DNA of 19,773 bases from a virus: UHGV virus genome UHGV-0141098; one strand, given 5' to 3'. Positions 699 to 18,228 of this stretch are shown one piece after another (the stretch's first letter is position 1; the number at the start of each line of letters is the position of its first letter). The position numbers and the translations under genes are program-made. Under the pieces are notes generated by a model that was not told where the DNA came from, did not search any database, and worked only from the letters and a program-made list of their open reading frames with translations.

Positions 699-715
699 CA
701 ATTTATTAGAGCAAA
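699..715 (-). promoter_or_regulatory. C1-repressor-type operator (match to P1 consensus ATTGCTCTAATAAATTT)
   Basis: Minus strand reads TTTGCTCTAATAAATTG, 15/17 to the recalled P1 C1 operator consensus. Lies 3 nt after the pacB stop codon; contains a -35-like TTGCTC. Confidence 0.55.
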
Positions 716-4005: not shown

Positions 4006-4022
4006 CAATACATTAGAGCAAT
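4006..4022 (-). promoter_or_regulatory. C1-repressor-type operator upstream of lpa
   Basis: Minus strand reads ATTGCTCTAATGTATTG (core ATTGCTCTAAT exact). Followed by TTGCTA -35-like and TATTAT -10-like elements before the lpa Shine-Dalgarno. Begins 1 nt after the stop of the upstream 347-aa gene. Confidence 0.55.
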
Positions 4023-6056: not shown

Positions 6057-7615
6057 ATGAAAATGACAAGTATTCAACAACGTGCAGAGCTTCATCGTCA
6101 AATCTGGCAAATTGCTAACGATGTCAGGGGTTCGGTCGATGGATGGGATTTTAAGCAATACGTTCTGGGCGCACTTTTCTACCGTTTTATCAGCGAAAAT
6201 TTTTCCAGCTATATTGAAGCCGGTGATGACAGTATCTGTTATGCGAAACTGGATGACAGCGTAATTACTGATGACATTAAAGACGATGCCATCAAAACTA
6301 AAGGCTACTTCATCTACCCCAGTCAGCTTTTCTGCAACGTAGCGGCGAAAGCAAATACTAATGACAGACTGAATGCAGATTTAAACAGCATCTTCGTTGC
6401 TATCGAAAGTTCTGCTTACGGTTATCCTTCAGAAGCTGACATCAAAGGTTTGTTTGCTGATTTCGATACCACCAGTAACCGCCTGGGTAACACCGTTAAA
6501 GATAAAAATGCCCGCCTGGCTGCGGTTCTGAAAGGGGTTGAAGGGTTAAAACTTGGTGACTTCAACGAACATCAGATTGACCTGTTCGGTGATGCCTATG
6601 AGTTCCTGATTTCTAACTATGCGGCAAATGCCGGTAAGTCAGGCGGCGAGTTCTTTACACCGCAGCACGTCTCCAAGCTGATTGCACAACTGGCTATGCA
6701 CGGGCAGACCAGCGTTAACAAAATCTACGACCCGGCAGCGGGTTCCGGCTCACTGTTGTTGCAGGCGAAAAAACAGTTTGATAACCACATCATCGAAGAA
6801 GGCTTTTTCGGTCAGGAAATCAACCATACGACCTATAACCTGGCGCGTATGAACATGTTTTTGCACAATATCAACTACGACAAGTTTGATATCAAGCTGG
6901 GTAATACACTGACTGAGCCGCACTTCAGAGATGAAAAACCGTTTGACGCCATCGTATCTAACCCACCGTATTCGGTGAAATGGATTGGCAGCGATGACCC
7001 GACGCTGATTAACGATGAGCGTTTTGCCCCGGCTGGCGTTCTGGCCCCCAAATCCAAAGCTGACTTTGCGTTTGTACTACATGCGCTGAACTATCTTTCG
7101 GCCAAAGGTCGTGCTGCGATTGTCTGCTTCCCGGGTATTTTTTACCGTGGCGGCGCAGAGCAGAAAATCCGTCAGTATCTGGTCGATAATAACTATGTCG
7201 AAACCGTAATTTCACTGGCACCGAACCTGTTCTTTGGCACCACCATTGCAGTAAACATTCTGGTGCTGTCTAAGCATAAAACGGATACCAAAGTTCAGTT
7301 TATTGACGCCAGCGAACTGTTCAAAAAAGAGACTAACAACAATATCCTGACCGACGCCCATATCGAACAGATTATGCAGGTATTTGCCAGCAAGGAAGAT
7401 GTTGCTCATCTGGCGAAATCTGTCGCGTTTGAAGCCGTTGTAGCGAATGACTATAACCTGTCGGTGAGCAGCTATGTGGAAGCGAAAGATACTCGCGAAA
7501 TTATCGATATCGCTGAGTTGAATGCAGAGCTGAAAACCACGGTCAGCAAAATCGACCAGTTACGCCAAGACATTGATGCGATCGTGGCTAGAATTGAAGG
7601 CAGAGAGGTACAGGC

Positions 7616-7619
<4 letters not shown>
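6057..7619 (+). CDS. hsdM: Type I restriction-modification N6-adenine DNA methyltransferase subunit HsdM, 520 aa
   Basis: AdoMet-binding motif [10 protein letters not shown] and catalytic NPPY motif (SNPPYSVKW). N-terminus [17 protein letters not shown] matches EcoR124-family HsdM as recalled. Stop overlaps the hsdS start (ATGA). Confidence 0.95.
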
Positions 7620-8836
<1,217 letters not shown>

Positions 8837-8957
8837 TTGACCATTGCTACCGATCGGGCCACCTTAACACCCGGTCAGTATATAGACTATTTTTTACGCG
8901 CCGGAAGTCACTCTTAACGCCCTTCCGGCTCTTGCCAGGCGGCACAAAGGATGCGCT

Positions 8958-11900
8958 ATGACTCATCAAACACACACCATTGCTGAATCCAATAACTATA
9001 TCGTCCTTGATAAGTACATCAAAGCTAAGCAAACAAGCGACAGCTACCAGAGCGAATCGGACCTGGAACGTGAACTGATTCAGGACCTGCGGAATCAGGG
9101 TTATGAATTTATTTCCGTAAAATCACAGTCGGCAATGCTGTCCAATGTTCGGGAACAGCTTCAGAACCTCAATGGTGTGGTGTTTAATGACAGCGAGTGG
9201 CGGCGTTTCACGGAGCAGTATCTGGATAACCCGAGCGATGGCATTCTGGATAAGACCCGTAAAATCCATATCGACTATATTTGCGACTTTATTTTTGATG
9301 ACGAGCGTCTTGAGAACATCTATTTGATAGATAAAAAGAATCTCATGCGCAATAAGGTGCAGATTATCCAGCAGTTTGAACAGGCGGGTTCTCACGCTAA
9401 CCGTTATGACGTAACTATCCTGGTTAATGGCTTACCGCTGGTGCAAATCGAACTGAAAAAACGCGGCGTGGCGATTCGTGAGGCTTTCAACCAGATACAT
9501 CGTTACAGTAAAGAGAGTTTTAACAGCGAAAATTCCCTGTTTAAGTATCTGCAGCTGTTCGTCATTTCCAACGGCACTGATACCCGTTATTTTGCCAACA
9601 CGACAAAGCGCGATAAAAACAGTTTTGACTTCACCATGAATTGGGCGAAATCAGACAACACGCTGATTAAAGACCTCAAAGACTTTACCGCTACCTTTTT
9701 CCAGAAACATACTCTGCTGAATGTTCTGGTGAACTACAGCGTTTTTGACAGTAGTCAGACGCTACTGGTGATGCGACCGTACCAGATTGCCGCCACCGAG
9801 CGCATTCTGTGGAAAATTAAGAGTTCCTTTACAGCGAAGAACTGGTCAAAACCGGAAAGCGGTGGGTATATCTGGCACACTACCGGTTCTGGTAAAACCC
9901 TCACCAGCTTTAAAGCCGCGCGTCTGGCAACAGAGCTGGACTTTATTGATAAAGTCTTCTTTGTGGTCGACAGGAAAGACCTCGATTACCAGACCATGAA
10001 GGAATATCAGCGTTTTTCGCCAGACAGCGTCAACGGCTCGGAAAATACCGCAGGCCTTAAACGAAATCTGGATAAGGACGATAACAAAATTATCGTCACT
10101 ACTATTCAGAAACTCAATAACCTGATGAAAGCAGAAAGCGATCTGCCTGTATATAATCAGCAAGTGGTGTTTATATTTGATGAATGCCACCGCAGCCAGT
10201 TTGGAGAAGCGCAGAAAAACCTGAAGAAGAAATTCAAACGCTATTATCAGTTTGGTTTTACCGGCACCCCTATTTTCCCGGAAAACGCCTTAGGCTCAGA
10301 AACAACCGCCAGCGTATTTGGTCGTGAATTGCATTCGTATGTAATTACCGATGCGATTCGTGACGAAAAAGTGCTCAAATTCAAGGTGGACTACAACGAT
10401 GTGCGGCCACAGTTTAAGTCTTTAGAGACAGAAACTGACGAGAAAAAACTGAGTGCGGCTGAAAATCAGCAGGCGTTTCTTCATCCCATGCGTATTCAGG
10501 AAATCACGCAATATATTCTGAATAATTTCCGCCAGAAAACCCACCGTACCTTCCCTGGCTCAAAAGGTTTTAATGCTATGTTGGCAGTGAGCAGCGTGGA
10601 TGCCGCGAAAGCCTATTATGCGACGTTTAAACGGTTACAAGAAGAAGCCGCTAATAAATCGGCTACCTATAAACCGCTGCGTATTGCGACAATCTTCTCC
10701 TTTGCCGCCAATGAAGAACAAAATGCCATTGGTGAAATTTCCGATGAAACTTTTGATACCAGCGCAATGGACAGCAGTGCTAAAGAGTTTCTGGATGCTG
10801 CAATTCGTGAGTATAACAGCTATTTTAAAACTAACTTCAGCACCGACAGTAACGGTTTTCAGAACTACTATCGTGATTTAGCCCAACGGGTTAAAAATCA
10901 GGATATCGATCTGTTAATTGTCGTGGGAATGTTTTTAACCGGCTTCGATGCTCCAACATTAAACACGCTATTCGTCGATAAAAACTTGCGTTTTCACGGC
11001 CTGATGCAGGCATTTTCCCGCACCAACCGCATTTATGACGCTACTAAAACCTTCGGTAATATTGTCACGTTCCGGGATCTGGAACGCTCAACCATTGATG
11101 CCATAACGCTGTTTGGTGACAAAAATACCAAAAATGTGGTTTTAGAAAAGAGTTATGCAGAGTATATGGAAGGCTTTACTGATGCTGCCACTGGTGAAGC
11201 TAAACGCGGCTTCATGACAGTAGTTTCAGAACTGGAACAACGGTTCCCTGACCCTACCAGTATTGAAAGTGAAAAAGAGAAGAAAGACTTCGTTAAACTG
11301 TTTGGCGAATACCTGCGTGCCGAGAACATCCTGCAAAACTATGATGAATTTGCCACGCTAAAAGCCCTGCAACAAATCGATCTTAGCGATCCTGTTGCGG
11401 TAGAAAAATTCAAAGCAGAACATTATGTGGATGATGAAAAGTTCGCTGAATTGCAAACAATTCGTCTCCCTGCTGATCGCAAGATTCAGGATTATCGTTC
11501 TGCCTATAACGATATTCGCGACTGGCAGCGCCGTGAGAAAGAAGCTGAGAAAAAAGAGAAATCAACCACTGACTGGGATGACGTGGTTTTTGAGGTCGAT
11601 TTGCTGAAGTCTCAGGAAATAAACCTGGATTATATCCTTGGACTGATTTTCGAACACAACAGACAAAATAAAGGCAAGGGCGAAATGATCGAAGAGGTCA
11701 AACGCTTAATTCGTTCAAGCCTGGGGAACCGGGCGAAAGAGGGCCTGGTGGTCGATTTTATTCAGCAAACGAACCTGGATGATTTACCAGACAAAGCCAG
11801 TATCATTGAGGCATTCTTTACGTTTGCTCAACGCGAACAGCAACGTGAAGCAGAAGCATTGATAAAAGAAGAAAATCTCAATGAAGATGCAGCAAAACGC

Positions 11901-12074
11901 TATATTCGCACGTCTTTAAAACGCGAATACGCCACCGAAAATGGCACAGAATTAAACGAAACATTACCAAAACTTAGTCCGTTGAATCCGCAATATAAAA
12001 CGAAAAAACAGGCAGTTTTCCAGAAAATCGTCTCGTTTATTGAGAAGTTTAAAGGCGTAGGCGGAAAAATATAG
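8958..12074 (+). CDS. hsdR: Type I restriction endonuclease/translocase subunit HsdR, 1038 aa (EcoR124I-like)
   Basis: PD-(D/E)xK nuclease residues D151, E165, K167 ([20 protein letters not shown]). SF2 helicase motifs [12 protein letters not shown] and TGTP. Length of 1038 aa and N-terminus [14 protein letters not shown] match EcoR124I HsdR as recalled. Confidence 0.95.
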
Positions 12075-12269: not shown

Positions 12270-12300
12270 ATGCCGCGCCCCTTGCGGCATGTTTTTATTT
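12270..12300 (+). terminator. Rho-independent terminator (probable hsdR terminator)
   Basis: Stem ATGCCGC/GCGGCAT (7 bp) with a 7-nt loop, followed by GTTTTTATTTT on the plus strand. About 200 bp downstream of the hsdR stop. Confidence 0.6.
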
Positions 12301-12324: not shown

Positions 12325-12341
12325 AGATTTATTAGAGCAAT
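12325..12341 (-). promoter_or_regulatory. C1-repressor-type operator with overlapping promoter-like elements
   Basis: Minus strand reads ATTGCTCTAATAAATCT (16/17 to consensus). Its first base is the last base of the upstream gene's stop codon. -35-like TTGCTC, a 17-nt spacer, then TAAAAC. Confidence 0.6.
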
Positions 12342-12920: not shown

Positions 12921-13815
12921 TCAGCGAACGTAAATAGTGCCGCCGTTCTCTTTTTCCCATGCATCGCTACGTGCATAGCAAACATCGAGAAGTCTTCTTG
13001 CCGCAGTTTCCTCTAAACCCAATTCGACAACCAACTGCTCATGACGGCGGGTAACCACATCAAACAGGGTATGCAGCCCTTTAGTTGCCAGATCATCAAT
13101 GAATTCCGGTTCGAACGGCAGCTCTGCATCTGCCAACATAACCTCTTGCGCCCACTCAACTCGACGGACCAATTCCGGGCGGCGGCTTTCCATCTCTTTA
13201 CAGATCAATTCATGGAAGAACTCTACCCAACCTTCCGGCTGGAACTCGCGGAAAATTGCCAACGGCTGGAAGTTTGGCATCAACCATTCGTTGATTCGGA
13301 TATCAATGGCATAGCCCATGTCGCAGCAGAACTGATAAGCAAAGTCCAGCTTAGAAACGATATAAGGACGCTCGTTATTGAACTCTTTAGGCGATGAGAT
13401 CCCATAAGCCAGGAGGCGCGGGAAGAAGGAGATTTGCCCTAACGTCGGATGAAGTTTGCTTGCAGGGAAACGGCGCTCAGTAATGCCATACATTTCCTTC
13501 TTGAGCGTCGCAAATTTGGCATTCTCATTAACCAGCGCGGTAACCTCTGCTTTTTTATTAGCAAATGCCACGCGCGCTTCGCTTGCATCTTTAATAGTTT
13601 TTTTGAGCTGTTGGTTAAGGTCAGCGACCTGCTTACGCAGTTCCTGTCGCTCGCTTTTAGCTTTGTTATAGCGTTTCTCAAGGTTAAAAGGATCAAGTTT
13701 CATGATCTCTTTATATTGAGATTTTAGCGTTGAAATCTGTGAGTTCCGCAGTTCAACCATCGCGGTCATTTCATTGAGTTTTGTTTCCAGCTCAATGCTT
13801 ATACGTTCGGCATTA
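12921..13815 (-). pseudogene. 3' portion (about 295 codons) of a ~420-aa coiled-coil protein gene interrupted by IS1
   Basis: The track ORF 12921..13829 begins with a TTG inside the IS1 left inverted repeat. Its reading frame is continuous with the ORF 14584..14959 once IS1 and one copy of the 8-bp duplication are removed. Confidence 0.7.
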
Positions 13816-13870
13816 GGTAATGGTGCCAACTTACTGATTTAGTGTATGATGGTGTTTTTGAGGTGCTCCA

Positions 13871-14146
13871 GTGGCTTCTGTTTCTATCAGCTGTCCCTCC
13901 TGTTCAGCTACTGAAGGCGTGGTGCGTAACGGTAAAAGTACTGCCGGACATCAGCGCTATCTCTGCTCTCACTGCCGTAAAACATGGCAGCTACAGTTCA
14001 CTTACACCGCTTCTCAACCCGGTACGCATCAGAAAATCATTGATATGGCCATGAATGGCGTCGGATGTCGCGCCAGTGCACGCATTATGGGCGTTGGCCT
14101 CAACACGGTTTTACGTCACTTAAAAAACTCAGGCCGCAGTCGGTAA
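13871..14146 (+). CDS. insA: IS1 InsA (transposition inhibitor; N-terminal part of InsAB' transposase), 91 aa
   Basis: Protein [51 protein letters not shown]... matches IS1 InsA as recalled. Confidence 0.9.
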
Positions 14147-14568
14147 CCTCGCGCATACAACCGGGCAGTGATGTGATTGTCTGCGCTGAAATGGACGAAC
14201 AGTGGGGCTACGTCGGTGCTAAATCACGCCAGCGCTGGTTGTTTTACGCGTATGACAGGATACGGAGGACGGTTGTGGCGCACGTATTCGGTGAACGCAC
14301 GCTGGCCACGCTGGAGCGTCTTCCGGGCCTGCTGTCGGCCTTTGAGGTCGTGGTATGGATGACGGATGGCTGGCCGCTTTATGAATCACGCCTGAAGGGA
14401 GAACTGCACGTTATCAGCAAGCGATATACGCAGCGCATTGAGCGGCATAACCTGAATCTGAGGCAGCATCTGGCAAGGCTGGGCAGGAAGTCACTGTCGT
14501 TCTCAAAATCGGTGGAGCTGCATGACAAAGTCATCGGGCATTATCTGAACATAAAACACTATCAGTAA
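14065..14568 (+). CDS. insB: IS1 insB reading frame (expressed as InsAB' by -1 frameshift at the A6C motif)
   Basis: Frame encodes ...[26 protein letters not shown]...[15 protein letters not shown]...KHYQ, typical of IS1 InsB. The slippery motif AAAAAAC is intact at 14122-14128. Confidence 0.85.
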
Positions 14569-14583
14569 GTTGGAGTCATTACC

Positions 14584-14959
14584 CGGCATTATCAGCACGC
14601 TGGTTGGCGTCATGCGTCGCATCGTCGATCGCGTCCTGTTGCTGGCGTTTCAAATGTTCAATTTGCAGCTGAAGCTCTTCAATTTCTTTACCCTTCAGAC
14701 CGAGATCCAACTGCATATTTTCAGCTGCATCTACCAGGGAGTTATGGCTATCAGCTTCTGCGTTATAAACATCAATAAGCTGTGCGTGAAGCATCTCCGC
14801 TGACTGAACCGCATTATCAAAAAAACGTGCTGTGAGGTCATCACAACTAACGCGGCGTTGCGCGGCCCGGATGTTCTGGATAATGGCCGGGATACCGGCA
14901 TTCAGGACATCAGGGATAGATACATTTTCGATTGATTGGTTTTGTGCTGAAGTGCTCAT
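14584..14959 (-). pseudogene. 5' portion (125 codons) of the IS1-interrupted ~420-aa coiled-coil protein gene
   Basis: The track ORF 14579..14959 ends at a stop supplied by IS1 sequence. Its frame joins the 12921..13815 portion across the target duplication (...RADNA | ERISIELE...). Confidence 0.7.
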
Positions 14960-14960
14960 T

Positions 14961-15179
14961 TCAAAGTTCCGTATTAGCTTGTGCTTCGGTCATTTTTCCT
15001 AAGTATGAAGGTGGAAGGACTACGCAATTTGTATCCAGTCCCTCACCTATGGCAGCCTGTAAAATTCTGGCTAAGGTGAGTCTCTTGTTGCGATACCTGG
15101 TGATGACATGCCTGATACCGCCGGTCAGCGTAACAAAGGCGATCAGCCAGTAGTGATATTTCCGTCGGAATGGCCACAT
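14961..15179 (-). CDS. hypothetical protein, 72 aa, first gene of the IS1-interrupted operon
   Basis: AGGTG Shine-Dalgarno 4 nt before the ATG. One hydrophobic segment (YWLIAFVTLTGGI). Stop is 1 nt from the start of the downstream interrupted gene. Confidence 0.45.
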   Translation of the reverse strand: MWPFRRKYHYWLIAFVTLTGGIRHVITRYRNKRLTLARILQAAIGEGLDTNCVVLPPSYLGKMTEAQANTEL

Positions 15180-15193
15180 AGTGCACCTTATAG

Positions 15194-15210
15194 ATTGCTC
15201 TAATAAAAAA
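15194..15210 (+). promoter_or_regulatory. C1-repressor-type operator, plus orientation
   Basis: ATTGCTCTAATAAAAAA, 14/17 to consensus. Its A-tail runs directly into the hairpin at 15211-15231. Confidence 0.55.
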
Positions 15211-15240
15211 CGTGATGAGTGTACATCACGTTTTAAAAAT
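15205..15240. terminator. bidirectional Rho-independent terminator hairpin between the two operators
   Basis: Stem CGTGATG/CATCACG (7 bp, extendable by the flanking A/T runs) with a 7-nt loop. A-run on one side and T-run on the other, so a U-tract follows on either strand. Confidence 0.6.
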
Positions 15241-15242
15241 AT

Positions 15243-15259
15243 GGAATTATTAGAGCAAT
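15243..15259 (-). promoter_or_regulatory. C1-repressor-type operator, minus orientation
   Basis: Minus strand reads ATTGCTCTAATAATTCC (14/17, core exact). Begins 1 nt after the stop of the 233-aa gene. Followed by the same ATTTTTAAAAC element seen after the operator at 12325. Confidence 0.55.
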
Positions 15260-15260
15260 A

Positions 15261-15962
15261 TTATTCTGATTCTCGCTCAAAAAATGAGCTGATAAGGGGA
15301 AGCCAATCCTCTGACACTTCGCGAGGTCGCGGTTTGCCGTGGAAAAAGATTATTCGGCAGTCTTTTGGTAATGCCCCATTCCCCCTGGAGTAACGCGCGC
15401 TCGCATATTTCGAACCAGGTTCCACAACATCGGCCTTGTAACTTACAAACCATCCCGGATACAGATCCTGAAATGCTGGTGTATCATCACCCATAACCTT
15501 CCGCAAAAACCCCTGCTCACCCCAGCATTCAGTAGTAACACAACGAGCAATCCAACCTTCCGGATCTTGCCAGAATGCACTCCAGATATGCACTTTTACA
15601 CTATTTGGTATCCACAGGGCACCGCTGCCACGATATTGTGGATGGTAAAAATCCCTAAGCATGGTGAAGCTGGTTGGTGGATTCTCTAGGATTGGGCGTA
15701 TATCACCGGCAATAACCGTGTCCAAATCCAGATAGAACAGATCATCGGTTATATCCGGTCGGAACAACTCGATTTTCGCCCACCAGCCACGGCACTTTTG
15801 CCACTGGTTGATCAATGGGACAACTTTGACGCCAGGTACATGTAAACGCTTCAGGTCTGTCAGGCAAATAATTTCATAGCCTTTTGGCAGTTGATTAACC
15901 AGCCACTGCACATCGGAAGCGTTATAGTCACCACCAGAGCGAAGAACTAAAGCAATCTTCAT
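15261..15962 (-). CDS. hypothetical protein, 233 aa, with a DxD-like motif (possible nucleotide-sugar transferase)
   Basis: Segment [12 protein letters not shown] suggests a DxD-type metal/nucleotide-binding site. Start overlaps the phosphatase stop (ATGA). Functional call is tentative. Confidence 0.5.
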
Positions 15963-16651
15963 GCTGCACCATCACCTTTCACTTTCATCAATGTCAGGTT
16001 TCCGCAAAATACGGCACCTGTGTCGATATAATGCTGATTCCAGAATGTCTTCGGGCTTTTCACCGGAGTGTGACCAAAGATAAAACGATCTGCGCCCGAA
16101 ATTTCGCCACCAATATCATCCATCGAATCACTGATACGCTCGCGCGCCCAGACAACGTTGAAAAGCGGCACCTCCTTACCGAATTGGTATTCATTATCCG
16201 GATAGTCGGCATGGGCTATAACGATAGTTTCTTGCCCGGTGTTCAACTCAATGATATAGGGCAGACGCTTTACCAGCTCCACCAGCGCCCAGGCTAATAT
16301 TTCCTGATCAGTGTCCAGCATGAAGAACCATTGTCCGCCATTCATTAGCCAGTTATTCACGTTGCCATCTGGACTTAACGCATCAATCATCAGCCGCTCA
16401 TGGTTCCCCATCACTGCCCTGAACCAGGGCATCTGCAATAGTTCCAGACATTCGACATTTTCAGTACCGCGATCGATAAGGTCGCCGAACGATATCAGTA
16501 AATCCTGCGCCGGGTCAAAATCCACACGATGGAGTTCGGACATCAGTCTGGTGTAGCAACCATGCAGATCACCAACAACCCAGACATTCCTGTATTTGGT
16601 ACCGTCGATACGGTGATAAATTGTGGGTGCCATCATGTATTCTTCAGCCAT
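15959..16651 (-). CDS. PPP-family Ser/Thr protein phosphatase (lambda-PPase / PrpA-like), 230 aa
   Basis: Three diagnostic metallophosphatase motifs: GDLHG, GDLIDRG and GNHE. Could correspond to P1 ppp, but that is not verified. Confidence 0.85.
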
Positions 16652-17819: not shown

Positions 17820-17982
17820 TCATTTCAGCGATTACCGGGTCCACTACAGCATCTGCTTCCTGTTCATTACGCGGCATGATCGATGCCAGCGATTCATAAT
17901 TAGCCTTGAATGACACGATTATTCTCCCGATGTTAATGTGCGCTATATCAAAGAGCACATATGCACTAATTAATTTATTATT

Positions 17983-18228
17983 TTAAGCAGCATACAACCA
18001 CTTGTCGCCGTTCAATACATGCTCAATAGCCTCACCCTTTTTAAGGCTTATGTATTCCAGGATGGCGGTTATCGCTTGTTCTGCACCATACGCAAGAACG
18101 ACGTAGTAACCTTCCTCTCTAAGCCTGCGCATCCAGGCGATCTGCTCTTTCGTCGGGGCTTTACCATTTGGTTCTTTAAGCTCAATTCGCATGCCGTGAT
18201 AAATACCGCATGCTTTATCGAGACTCAT
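17983..18228 (-). CDS. VRR-NUC-like small nuclease-fold protein, 81 aa
   Basis: Segment D..(11)..IELKEPNGKAPTKEQIAWMRRLREEGYYV resembles the VRR-NUC D...ExK core. Its ATG overlaps the stop of the truncated IS110-family ORF. Confidence 0.45.
   Translation of the reverse strand: MSLDKACGIYHGMRIELKEPNGKAPTKEQIAWMRRLREEGYYVVLAYGAEQAITAILEYISLKKGEAIEHVLNGDKWLYAA

What the first reader, a model, noticed from the sequence alone, without database searches (positions are those of the whole stretch)
15194..15259. Operator - terminator hairpin - inverted operator composite element
Two C1-type operators in opposite orientation (15194-15210 plus, 15243-15259 minus) flank a hairpin that has an A-run on one side and a T-run on the other, so it can terminate on either strand. 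The element sits between the four-gene operon and the IS1-interrupted operon. It could be a repressor-gated terminator or roadblock that decides whether transcription continues into the downstream operon, or a looped operator pair. The space between hairpin and the next ATG is only about 35 nt, too short for a conventional promoter, which favours read-through control.
Basis: seen in the sequence. Interest (0 to 1): 0.5.

Follow-up and report, generated by a model that had tools for sequence, protein, structure and literature searches.

The report
Known phage P1 Op86 operator pair
This is the already annotated pair of C1-repressor binding sites (Op86a/Op86b) in front of the pmgR gene of a phage-P1-like plasmid; together with a conserved terminator hairpin they bracket that gene's own early promoter, so the feature is real but ordinary.

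Summary
Two inverted C1-type operators lie at 15194-15210 (+) and 15243-15259 (-), flanking an 11-bp hairpin. The window is a P1/P7-like phage-plasmid. These two sites are annotated in the P1 and P7 GenBank records as OpmgRb/OpmgRa (former Op86b/Op86a), with a predicted sigma-70 promoter PpmgR between them.

That argument does not hold. Two published P1vir RNA-seq tables show a roughly 2-log2 jump from pmgQ to pmgR/pmgS at 10 min, grouping pmgR with other C1-controlled early genes.

In divergent relatives (PmgR 71-83% identical) the architecture and spacing are kept. The stem sequence changes with compensation, and the G·U pairs and the T5-6 tract occur on the coding strand only. The hairpin therefore looks like a one-way intrinsic terminator for the upstream pmgN-pmgQ operon, not a conserved bidirectional one.

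The best conserved -10-like hexamer (TACACT/TATCAT/TATTAT) is the hairpin loop. The geometry matches P1's Plpa/Op94, which suggests that pmgR transcripts start inside the 3' arm and escape the terminator. That last step is inference.

Novelty: already known. Interest is low.

The parts
15243..15259 (-). C1 operator Op86a (OpmgRa in P1, Op(sht[a]) in P7): ATTGCTCTAATAATTCC. It begins 2 nt after the pmgQ stop codon.
   Evidence: Matches the consensus 14/17. Same position as the protein_bind feature 'monovalent C1-controlled operator OpmgRa; former Op86a; controls expression of pmgR and pmgS' in AF234172 and the equivalent feature in P7 AF503408. The first 13 nt are invariant in 81 P1-clade loci and nearly so in divergent relatives.
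15194..15210 (+). C1 operator Op86b (OpmgRb, Op(sht[b])): ATTGCTCTAATAAAAAA, inverted relative to the direction of transcription. Its last six bases encode the T6 tract of the coding strand.
   Evidence: Operator positions 15-17 depart from the consensus (TTT to AAA), and a T5-6 tract on the coding strand is kept in all relatives.
15207..15234 (-). Hairpin read on the coding strand: AAAACGTGATG-TACACT-CATCACGTTTT. The core stem is 15211-15217 / 15224-15230 and the loop is 15218-15223.
   Evidence: In 12 sequences 97% of cells are paired and 3 pairs changed on both sides. Coding-strand core energy is -5.3 to -9.1 kcal/mol in all 12 (-5.3 only in L092, whose shifted-register stem runs beyond the fixed segment; full hairpin -16.1), whereas the antisense version is much weaker in 8 of 12.
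15205..15210 (-). T6 (U-tract) directly after the hairpin on the coding strand. With the hairpin it forms a putative intrinsic terminator for the pmgN-pmgQ operon.
   Evidence: The 8-nt tail has 6-7 T on the coding strand in all 12 sequences, against 0-4 on the other strand. This is inferred function; no 3'-end mapping is available.
15218..15223 (-). Hairpin loop TACACT, my proposed -10 hexamer for PpmgR (TATCAT or TATTAT in relatives).
   Evidence: It is the top coding-strand promoter hit in all 12 sequences, with A2 and T6 invariant. This is an inference and has not been mapped.
15240..15246 (-). Proposed -35 region (TTCCAT or TCCATA here, TTTACT in several relatives). It overlaps the 3' end of Op86a by 3-4 nt, with a 16-17 nt spacer.
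   Evidence: The geometry is the same as Olpa/Plpa (ATTGCTCTAATGTATTGCTA-16 nt-TATTAT), which is annotated as a sigma-70 promoter without the word 'predicted'.
15230..15258 (-). PpmgR as annotated in GenBank (predicted): -35 TTGCTC at 15253-15258 and -10 TAAAAC at 15230-15235.
   Evidence: The -10 lacks the final T and is not conserved: it reads TGAAGC, TGCGGC, TGAGGC or TAAAGC in relatives.
14961..15179 (-). pmgR (72 aa; shtA in P7), the first gene of the controlled operon. The Shine-Dalgarno sequence AAGGTG lies at 15184-15189.
   Evidence: [quoted passage not shown]
15261..15962 (-). pmgQ (hdmD in P7), the last gene of the upstream operon.

Best explanation
The element is the Op86a/Op86b operator pair of a P1-like prophage-plasmid. 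It sits at the junction between the pmgN-pmgO-pmgP-ppp-pmgQ operon and the pmgR-pmgS-pap operon. I propose three overlapping functions within about 66 bp.

1. Terminator. Transcripts arriving from pmgQ fold the hairpin and meet the U6 tract, so the element acts as a one-way intrinsic terminator. This is inferred from conservation.

2. Promoter. A sigma-70 early promoter for pmgR lies between the two operators. The existence of a promoter is supported by published RNA-seq. Its most likely -10 is the hairpin loop (15223-15218), with a -35 abutting Op86a. Transcription would then start at about 15211 +/- 3, inside the 3' arm, so these transcripts cannot form the terminator hairpin. This placement is inferred.

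3. Repression. In the lysogen C1 binds Op86a (about -48 to -32) and Op86b (about +2 to +18) and shuts the promoter from both sides. Binding is accepted in the P1/P7 annotation but was not tested here. Bound C1 plus the terminator would also insulate pmgR-pmgS-pap from upstream leakage (inferred).
For: Identity with the annotated Op86a/b and predicted PpmgR: the region is 98.3% identical to P1, and the 66-bp element itself is identical, with operator coordinates coinciding.

Independent promoter:
- P1vir RNA-seq Table S1 of PMC8201110, WT at 10 min, logFC: pmgO/pmgP/ppp/pmgQ = 7.4/7.0/6.9/7.0, against pmgR/pmgS/pap = 9.0/10.0/8.4. The dksA host gives 6.2 against 9.0/9.1.
- A second dataset (bioRxiv 10.64898/2025.12.28.696737) gives pmgQ 5.94 to pmgR 7.96 at 10 min, and 8.08 to 9.36 at 20 min.
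- The pmgR level at 10 min matches other C1-controlled early genes such as ref, ant1, kilA, dmt and pmgT.

Terminator:
- Every divergent relative keeps the layout operator, 20 nt, hairpin, T5-6 fused to the inverted operator, at the same spacing but with different stems (P1 CGTGATG/CATCACG; others CATGGTG/C[A/G]CCATG; L092 CGGCATG/CATGCCG).
- 97% of cells are paired and 3 pairs changed on both sides.
- The wobble pairs are G·U on the coding strand only, so the antisense hairpin loses 3-8 kcal/mol in 8 of 12 sequences. T tails are 6-7 of 8 on the coding strand against 0-4 of 8.
- Within the P1 clade, 4 of 5 stem transitions keep pairing as G·U.

-10 in the loop:
- It is the top-scoring coding-strand promoter in all 12 sequences (scores 5.2-9.2), and the loop hexamer TA[C/T]N[A/C]T is conserved.
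- The operator/-35 overlap and 16-nt spacer are the same as at Plpa/Op94.
Against: - No TSS, 3'-end or footprint data were available. PpmgR is only 'predicted' in GenBank.
- The simple consensus scan flagged neither a promoter nor a terminator here.
- In the window and in P1 the hexamers are weak (TTCCAT-17-TACACT). My approximate PWM, built from base frequencies recalled from memory, scores this 5.2 against 4.0 for the annotated PpmgR, which is little discrimination.
- The stem is short and only moderately GC-rich (core about -8.5 kcal/mol).
- At 30 min RNA-seq shows no clear drop across the hairpin (11.66, then 10.81, then 11.70), so termination efficiency is unknown.
- The logFC values are relative to a no-phage baseline and are not length-normalised.
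- The covariation rests on about 7 lineages, and the shuffle control (3/500) is not a probability.
Confidence: 0.6

Rival explanations
1. First reader's model. There is no promoter in the element, and pmgR is expressed by read-through from the upstream operon. The hairpin is a terminator whose passage is gated by C1 bound at the flanking operators (a repressor-gated terminator or roadblock).
For: The hairpin plus U-tract is conserved. The operators flank it directly, and Op86b encodes the U-tract. The consensus scan finds no strong promoter.
Against: At 10 min pmgR/pmgS are 2-3 log2 units higher than pmgQ in two datasets, which read-through cannot produce. Conserved -35/-10 pairs are present in all relatives. 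The P1 and P7 annotations treat the sites as operators of a promoter for pmgR/sht. dCas12a roadblocks in pmgO, pmgP, ppp and pmgQ gave no plating defect although pmgR is essential. That last point is weak, because the pmgR guide itself also failed to score.
Confidence: 0.05
2. The GenBank model is right in detail. PpmgR uses -35 TTGCTC inside Op86a and -10 TAAAAC (15235-15230), with a TSS at about 15223 in the loop. Op86b lies at about +13 to +29. The hairpin is still the upstream terminator.
For: It is annotated by the P1 genome authors. The -35 TTGCTC is invariant or nearly so because it is part of the operator. In P1 the PWM score is only slightly lower than for the loop model, 4.0 against 5.2.
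Against: The -10 lacks the key final T. It becomes TGAAGC, TGCGGC, TGAGGC or TAAAGC in relatives, and TAAAGC in 5 P1-clade loci. It never ranks among the top hits outside the P1-type sequences.
Confidence: 0.22
3. The palindrome acts at the DNA level. It could be a binding site for a dimeric protein or a cruciform, or the two C1-bound operators could interact (a loop or clamp) with the hairpin sequence serving only as a spacer.
For: The spacing between the operators is strictly conserved, 49 bp centre to centre, in all relatives. C1-mediated looping between Op99 operators is described in the literature (from my own knowledge; not checked here).
Against: The stem sequence is not conserved, but pairing is. 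In many relatives pairing is kept only as G·U on the coding-strand RNA, which are C·A mismatches in a DNA palindrome or on the other strand. A 32-bp gap is very short for a loop (general knowledge).
Confidence: 0.06
4. The hairpin is a 5' leader element (an attenuator or mRNA stabiliser) of transcripts that start upstream of it, for example from the -10-like AATAAT inside Op86a.
For: AATAAT (5/6) lies within the operator. GTGAAT-17-AATAAT scores 6.6 in three relatives. P1 ref is reported to combine promoter-operator and attenuator control (title of Windle et al. 1988, listed).
Against: The -35 is poor in P1, the window and most relatives. A hairpin plus U6 right after the start would mostly abort the very transcripts that RNA-seq shows to be abundant early.
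Confidence: 0.07

Closest known systems
Phage P1 OpmgRa/OpmgRb (former Op86a/Op86b) with predicted PpmgR; phage P7 Op(sht[a])/Op(sht[b])
   Same: It is the same element. The 66 bp are identical to P1 AF234172 (the first difference is 1 nt further downstream, in the 5' UTR), the flanking genes pmgQ and pmgR are the same, and the operator coordinates coincide.
   Different: The records annotate no terminator here and place the -10 at TAAAAC. The comparative data here add a coding-strand terminator and favour the loop hexamer as the -10. In this window the downstream gene pmgS is split by IS1.
P1 Plpa/Olpa (Op94), the C1-controlled promoter of the late-promoter activator gene lpa
   Same: A single C1 operator lies immediately upstream and overlaps the -35 by 3 nt, followed by a 16-nt spacer and a TATTAT-type -10. 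This is the same geometry as Op86a plus the loop -10 (also present in this window at 4006-4022).
   Different: Plpa has no second, inverted operator downstream and no hairpin or U-tract superimposed on the promoter.
P1 bivalent operators (Oc1ab = Op99a,b; Op72a,b; Op2a,b)
   Same: Two C1 operators in inverted orientation control one promoter (for Oc1ab).
   Different: In bivalent operators the two 17-mers overlap to form one imperfect palindrome of about 28 bp. Here they are separate monovalent sites with 32 bp between them, and that gap holds the promoter core and a hairpin.
P1 ref: promoter-operator plus attenuator-antiterminator control (Windle, Laufer & Hays 1988; only the title was seen)
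   Same: A C1 operator region combined with a terminator-like structure in P1.
   Different: That paper could not be read here. In ref the attenuator is reported downstream of the promoter. Here the hairpin is superimposed on the promoter and would act on transcripts coming from upstream.
Repressor roadblocks (e.g. LacI at downstream lac operators, CodY/CcpA roadblocks) and bidirectional intrinsic terminators
   Same: A DNA-bound repressor lies in the path of elongating RNA polymerase, and the P1-type sequence has a perfect palindrome with A- and T-runs.
   Different: There is no evidence that a roadblock is the main function. An independent promoter exists, and the antisense-strand hairpin and T-run are not conserved.

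Membership tests
P1-type C1-controlled operator | Asymmetric 17-bp site matching ATTGCTCTAATAAATTT | tested here: met
   Both sites match 14/17 with the first 13 nt perfect. Five sites with up to 3 mismatches occur in the window against 0.12 expected.
P1-type C1-controlled operator | Orthologous position to a catalogued operator of P1/P7 | tested here: met
   The sites coincide with OpmgRb/OpmgRa (Op86b/a) of AF234172 and Op(sht[b])/Op(sht[a]) of AF503408.
P1-type C1-controlled operator | Bound by C1 repressor (footprint or EMSA), with repression in the lysogen | not testable with these tools
   I rely on the annotation only. The primary literature on Op86 could not be retrieved. The c1 gene is not in this window.
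Intrinsic (Rho-independent) terminator, coding strand | Stable stem-loop with a 3-8 nt loop, directly followed by a U-rich tract | tested here: met
   7-bp core stem plus 4 A-U pairs, 6-nt loop, -13.4 kcal/mol, z = -7.0. T6 follows, with 7 T in the 8-nt tail. The tool's own terminator scan did not list it, probably because extending the stem to its maximum consumes the T-run (my inference).
Intrinsic (Rho-independent) terminator, coding strand | Structure conserved by compensatory change in relatives | tested here: met
   97% of cells paired, 3 pairs changed on both sides, G·U pairs on the coding strand only. The number of lineages is small.
Intrinsic (Rho-independent) terminator, coding strand | Transcript 3' ends at the U-tract, or reduced downstream transcription | tested here: inconclusive
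   Gene-level RNA-seq at 30 min gives pmgQ 11.66, pmgR 10.81, pmgS 11.70. The result is confounded by the downstream promoter and by gene length.
Bidirectional terminator | Hairpin and U-tract functional on both strands, and conserved | tested here: not met
   The antisense tail has 0-4 T of 8, and the antisense hairpin is 3-8 kcal/mol weaker in 8 of 12 sequences. The P1-type sequence has only T4 on the + strand.
Sigma-70 promoter (PpmgR) | -35 and -10 hexamers with a 16-18 nt spacer | tested here: inconclusive
   The match is weak in the window (TTCCAT-17-TACACT, or the annotated TTGCTC-17-TAAAAC) and good in relatives (TTTACT-16-TAT[C/T]AT). The stricter scan found nothing.
Sigma-70 promoter (PpmgR) | Transcription of the downstream genes independent of the upstream operon | tested here: met
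   Published gene-level RNA-seq shows a step-up of about 2-3 log2 units at 10 min in two datasets. No TSS has been mapped.

The most novel reading that the evidence does not exclude
C1 bound at Op86b, whose DNA encodes the terminator's U-tract, and at Op86a just upstream of the hairpin could do more than repress PpmgR. It could act as a roadblock that raises pausing and termination of transcripts coming from pmgQ. The junction would then be a repressor-reinforced insulator in lysogens and a leakier terminator once C1 is inactivated. The same 28 nt would also serve as the terminator hairpin (as RNA) and as the promoter core with the -10 in its loop (as DNA).
Probability: 0.12. Interest if true: 0.4.

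Novelty: already known. Interest (0 to 1): 0.15.

Why it matters
This matters little beyond P1 biology. The operator pair and its promoter are catalogued features of a classical phage.

The modest added value is comparative:
- The hairpin between the operators is under selection as a coding-strand RNA structure, which points to an unannotated terminator of the pmgN-pmgQ operon.
- The annotated -10 of PpmgR is probably misplaced. The conserved -10 is the hairpin loop, which would be a compact example of a terminator and a promoter sharing the same bases.
- pmgR is an essential head-completion gene (PMC9024508), yet it is expressed with the early, C1-controlled genes. Precise mapping of this junction would therefore be useful for P1 engineering and for annotating the many P1-like resistance plasmids.

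Tried and rejected
- Literature on Op86. A search for 'Op86' found nothing. The P1 genome paper (PMC523184 and its DOI) is not held. A search on operator names returned only unrelated abstracts. No P1 TSS or terminator mapping study was found.
- Rfam. No family matched in 14900-15500, even at E <= 1.
- Consensus promoter/terminator scan of 14500-16000. Nothing was reported inside the element.
- More relatives. The viral-contig scan with PmgR gave 80 loci, all 99% identical, useful only for polymorphism. The genome-contig scan with the PmgR alignment gave 2 near-identical loci. Scans with divergent PmgR homologues added one locus identical to an existing type. The metagenome pattern scan (operator, N38, T-run plus operator) returned 6 AT-rich chance matches and no relatives.
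- P1 late (Lpa-dependent) promoter. The -22 box seen at LP26/LPpmgL (AAATGACTA/TAGTCATTT) is absent from the element by inspection.
- A recurring 'hairpin plus inverted operator' module. The Op83 region (17940-18040) has no such hairpin.
- A long RNA hairpin formed by the two operators (-27 kcal/mol). I judge it a by-product of the inverted operators, because operator variants in relatives do not covary (for example L089 and L096).
- CRISPRi polarity data. Uninformative, because the pmgR guide itself failed to score.

Full report
**What is there.** The window is a P1/P7-like (Punavirus) phage-plasmid. Region 14584-16000 is 98.3% identical to P1 AF234172 and 98.5% identical to P7 AF503408. On the minus strand the genes run pmgO, pmgP, ppp, pmgQ (15261-15962), then the element, then pmgR (14961-15179, 72 aa), then pmgS. 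pmgS is split by an IS1 at 13816-14583, which has a target duplication.

The element reads ATTGCTCTAATAAAAAACGTGATGAGTGTACATCACGTTTTAAAAATATGGAATTATTAGAGCAAT on the plus strand. The two 17-mers at 15194-15210 (+) and 15243-15259 (-) each match the P1 C1 operator consensus 14/17, with the first 13 nt perfect. Five such sites occur in the window against 0.12 expected by chance. The repeat finder reports perfect 13-nt arms (the operators) and a perfect 11-nt stem with a 6-nt loop. Folding gives z-scores of -6 to -8.

**It is already annotated.** In the P1 record the two sites are protein_bind features for 'phage repressor C1'. They are OpmgRb (former Op86b) and OpmgRa (former Op86a, 'controls expression of pmgR and pmgS'). 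A 'predicted sigma 70 promoter PpmgR' lies between them, with -35 TTGCTC inside Op86a and -10 TAAAAC. In window coordinates these are 15253-15258 and 15230-15235. P7 annotates the same sites as Op(sht[a]) and Op(sht[b]). The 66-bp element is identical to P1; the first difference is 1 nt further downstream, in the 5' UTR. No terminator is annotated at this site in the P1 record, and none appears in the other stretch of the record that I inspected.

That assumes the promoter cannot overlap the hairpin.

Published gene-level RNA-seq argues against read-through:
- In P1vir infection of wild-type E. coli at 10 min, pmgO, pmgP, ppp and pmgQ have log fold changes of 7.4, 7.0, 6.9 and 7.0. pmgR, pmgS and pap have 9.0, 10.0 and 8.4. 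In the dksA host pmgQ is 6.2 against pmgR 9.0 and pmgS 9.1 (Table S1 of PMC8201110).
- An independent dataset gives pmgQ 5.94 and pmgR 7.96 at 10 min, then 8.08 and 9.36 at 20 min (bioRxiv 10.64898/2025.12.28.696737).
- pmgR is three times shorter than pmgQ and the values are not length-normalised, so the step is if anything underestimated.
- At 10 min pmgR, pmgS and pap group with other genes behind C1 operators (ref, ant1, kilA, dmt, pmgT) and not with the late genes.

Read-through cannot make a downstream gene more abundant than the upstream one. An independent early promoter at this junction is therefore well supported, although no transcription start site has been mapped.

**What the hairpin is.** I collected divergent relatives through PmgR homologues of 71-83% identity: Cronobacter phage JK004, Salmonella and Cronobacter plasmid contigs, and metagenome contigs.

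All of them keep the same layout at the same spacing. The order is operator, 20 nt, hairpin, T5-6 run fused to the inverted operator, about 14 nt, then ATG. The stems differ:
- P1: CGTGATG/CATCACG.
- Most others: CATGGTG/CACCATG or CATGGTG/CGCCATG.
- One (L092): CGGCATG/CATGCCG in a shifted register with a stronger stem.

On the 12-sequence alignment 97% of cells are paired and 3 pairs changed on both sides. The slid-partner controls drop to 34-72% paired.

The wobble pairs are G·U on the coding-strand RNA. The core hairpin stays at -5.3 to -9.1 kcal/mol on the coding strand in all 12 sequences (-5.3 only in L092, whose shifted-register stem runs beyond the fixed segment; its full hairpin is -16.1). 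On the antisense strand it falls to -1.0 to -5.5 in 8 of 12. The 8-nt tail has 6-7 T on the coding strand against 0-4 on the other.

Within 81 P1-clade loci the operators and the loop are invariant, and four of five stem transitions keep pairing as G·U.

This pattern points to an RNA-level hairpin plus U-tract read in the pmgQ-to-pmgR direction, that is, an intrinsic terminator for the upstream operon. It argues against a DNA palindrome for a dimeric protein. It also argues against a conserved bidirectional terminator. The 'either strand' reading applies only to the P1-type perfect palindrome, and weakly there (T4 on the plus strand).

Operator b departs from the operator consensus at exactly the positions that create the T-run, and every relative keeps a T5-6 run there.

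**Where the promoter probably is.** I scanned with an approximate -35/-10 weight matrix whose base frequencies I recalled from memory, so the scores are only a ranking.
- The best coding-strand promoter in all 12 sequences puts the -10 in the hairpin loop (TACACT in P1 and the window; TATCAT or TATTAT elsewhere; A2 and T6 invariant).
- The -35 lies 16-17 nt upstream and overlaps the last 3-4 nt of Op86a (TTTACT in several relatives; TTCCAT or TCCATA in the window).
- The annotated -10 TAAAAC lacks the final T. It becomes TGAAGC, TGCGGC, TGAGGC or TAAAGC in relatives, and TAAAGC in five P1-clade loci.
- The proposed geometry is the same as at Plpa/Olpa (Op94): ATTGCTCTAATGTATTGCTA, 16 nt, TATTAT. 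The P1 record lists Plpa as a sigma-70 promoter without the qualifier 'predicted', and it is present in this window at 4006-4022.

With this -10 the start would fall near 15211, inside the 3' arm. pmgR transcripts would then lack the 5' arm and could not terminate at their own hairpin. Op86a would cover about -48 to -32 and Op86b about +2 to +18.

In the window itself the two promoter models differ little in score (5.2 against 4.0). I put about 55% on the loop model and about 22% on the annotated one.

**How it most likely works.**
- In the lysogen, C1 occupies both operators and blocks RNA polymerase at PpmgR from both sides (annotation and inference).
- The terminator, and possibly bound C1 acting as a roadblock, keep stray upstream transcription out of pmgR-pmgS-pap (inference).
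- After C1 is inactivated, PpmgR fires early (RNA-seq).
- Later, the strongly expressed upstream operon ends, at least in part, at the hairpin (inferred; the 30-min values of 11.66, 10.81 and 11.70 do not resolve it).

**Rivals.**
- The pure read-through or gated-terminator model is contradicted by the RNA-seq step and by the conserved promoter hexamers.
- A DNA-level palindrome or loop model is disfavoured by the strand-asymmetric G·U pairs, although the strictly conserved 49-bp operator spacing leaves room for some interaction between bound C1 molecules.
- A leader-attenuator model (start upstream of the hairpin) lacks a conserved -35 and would abort transcripts that are in fact abundant.

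**Caveats.**
- There are no TSS, 3'-end or footprint data.
- The tool's consensus scans call neither a promoter nor a terminator here.
- The stem is short.
- The covariation rests on about seven lineages.
- The primary literature on Op86 and the P1 genome paper could not be read.

**Verdict.** It is the known Op86a/Op86b-PpmgR junction of P1/P7, so its novelty is 'already known'. The comparative analysis adds a probable unannotated one-way terminator and a probable relocation of the -10 into its loop. These are minor refinements that 5'- and 3'-end mapping could test.

Noticed in passing
window 13816-14583 (IS1); pmgS fragments at 12921-13829 and 14579-14959: A 768-bp IS1 with terminal inverted repeats and an 8-9 bp target duplication (CGGCATTA) splits pmgS. 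The same configuration is 100% identical in E. coli plasmid NZ_CP060066.1, which is probably the source lineage. pmgS scores as non-essential in P1, but the insertion should be polar on pap.
   Followed up: partly
window 6057-12074 (+) and 12325-12341 (-): A type I restriction-modification operon (hsdM, hsdS, hsdR) sits between phd/doc and pap, where P1 carries pmgT through humD. The Op88-type C1 operator (ATTGCTCTAATAAATCT) now points into the 3' end of hsdR. A GC-rich hairpin with a T-run at about 12270-12300 looks like the hsdR terminator. The P1 record already notes similarity of these flanks to EcoDXXI and R124 hsd loci.
   Followed up: partly
window 699-715 (-) and 54-720: An operator-like site (TTTGCTCTAATAAATTG, 2 mismatches) lies directly after the pacB stop codon. 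P1 has the end of c1 there and no such site. This stretch instead matches an icd/ant (immI-like) module, as in phages vB_EcoM-673R5, RCS47 and JL22. The immunity regions are therefore arranged differently from P1, and c1 is not in the window.
   Followed up: partly
L084, L091, L093, L094, L096 (alignment A1 columns 64-69, antisense strand): In relatives whose hairpin loop is TATTAT, the antisense strand reads -35 TTGTTC or TTGCTC (inside operator b), a 16-nt spacer, then -10 GATAAT. This could be an antisense promoter pointing back into pmgQ. It is absent from P1 and from the window.
   Followed up: no
[quoted passage not shown]: In published P1vir RNA-seq, these 'putative morphogenetic' genes are among the most strongly expressed phage genes at 10 min, alongside replication and immunity genes. 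Classical structural genes are still low at that time. Early expression of an essential head-completion gene (pmgR) is unexplained.
   Followed up: no
L090 (GCA_045575315.1 contig, 2397-2720): A P1-type relative carries an extra A in operator b (TTATTAGAAACAAT) and frameshifted, fragmented genes around pmgR, pmgQ and ppp. This suggests a decaying prophage-plasmid or a low-quality assembly.
   Followed up: no
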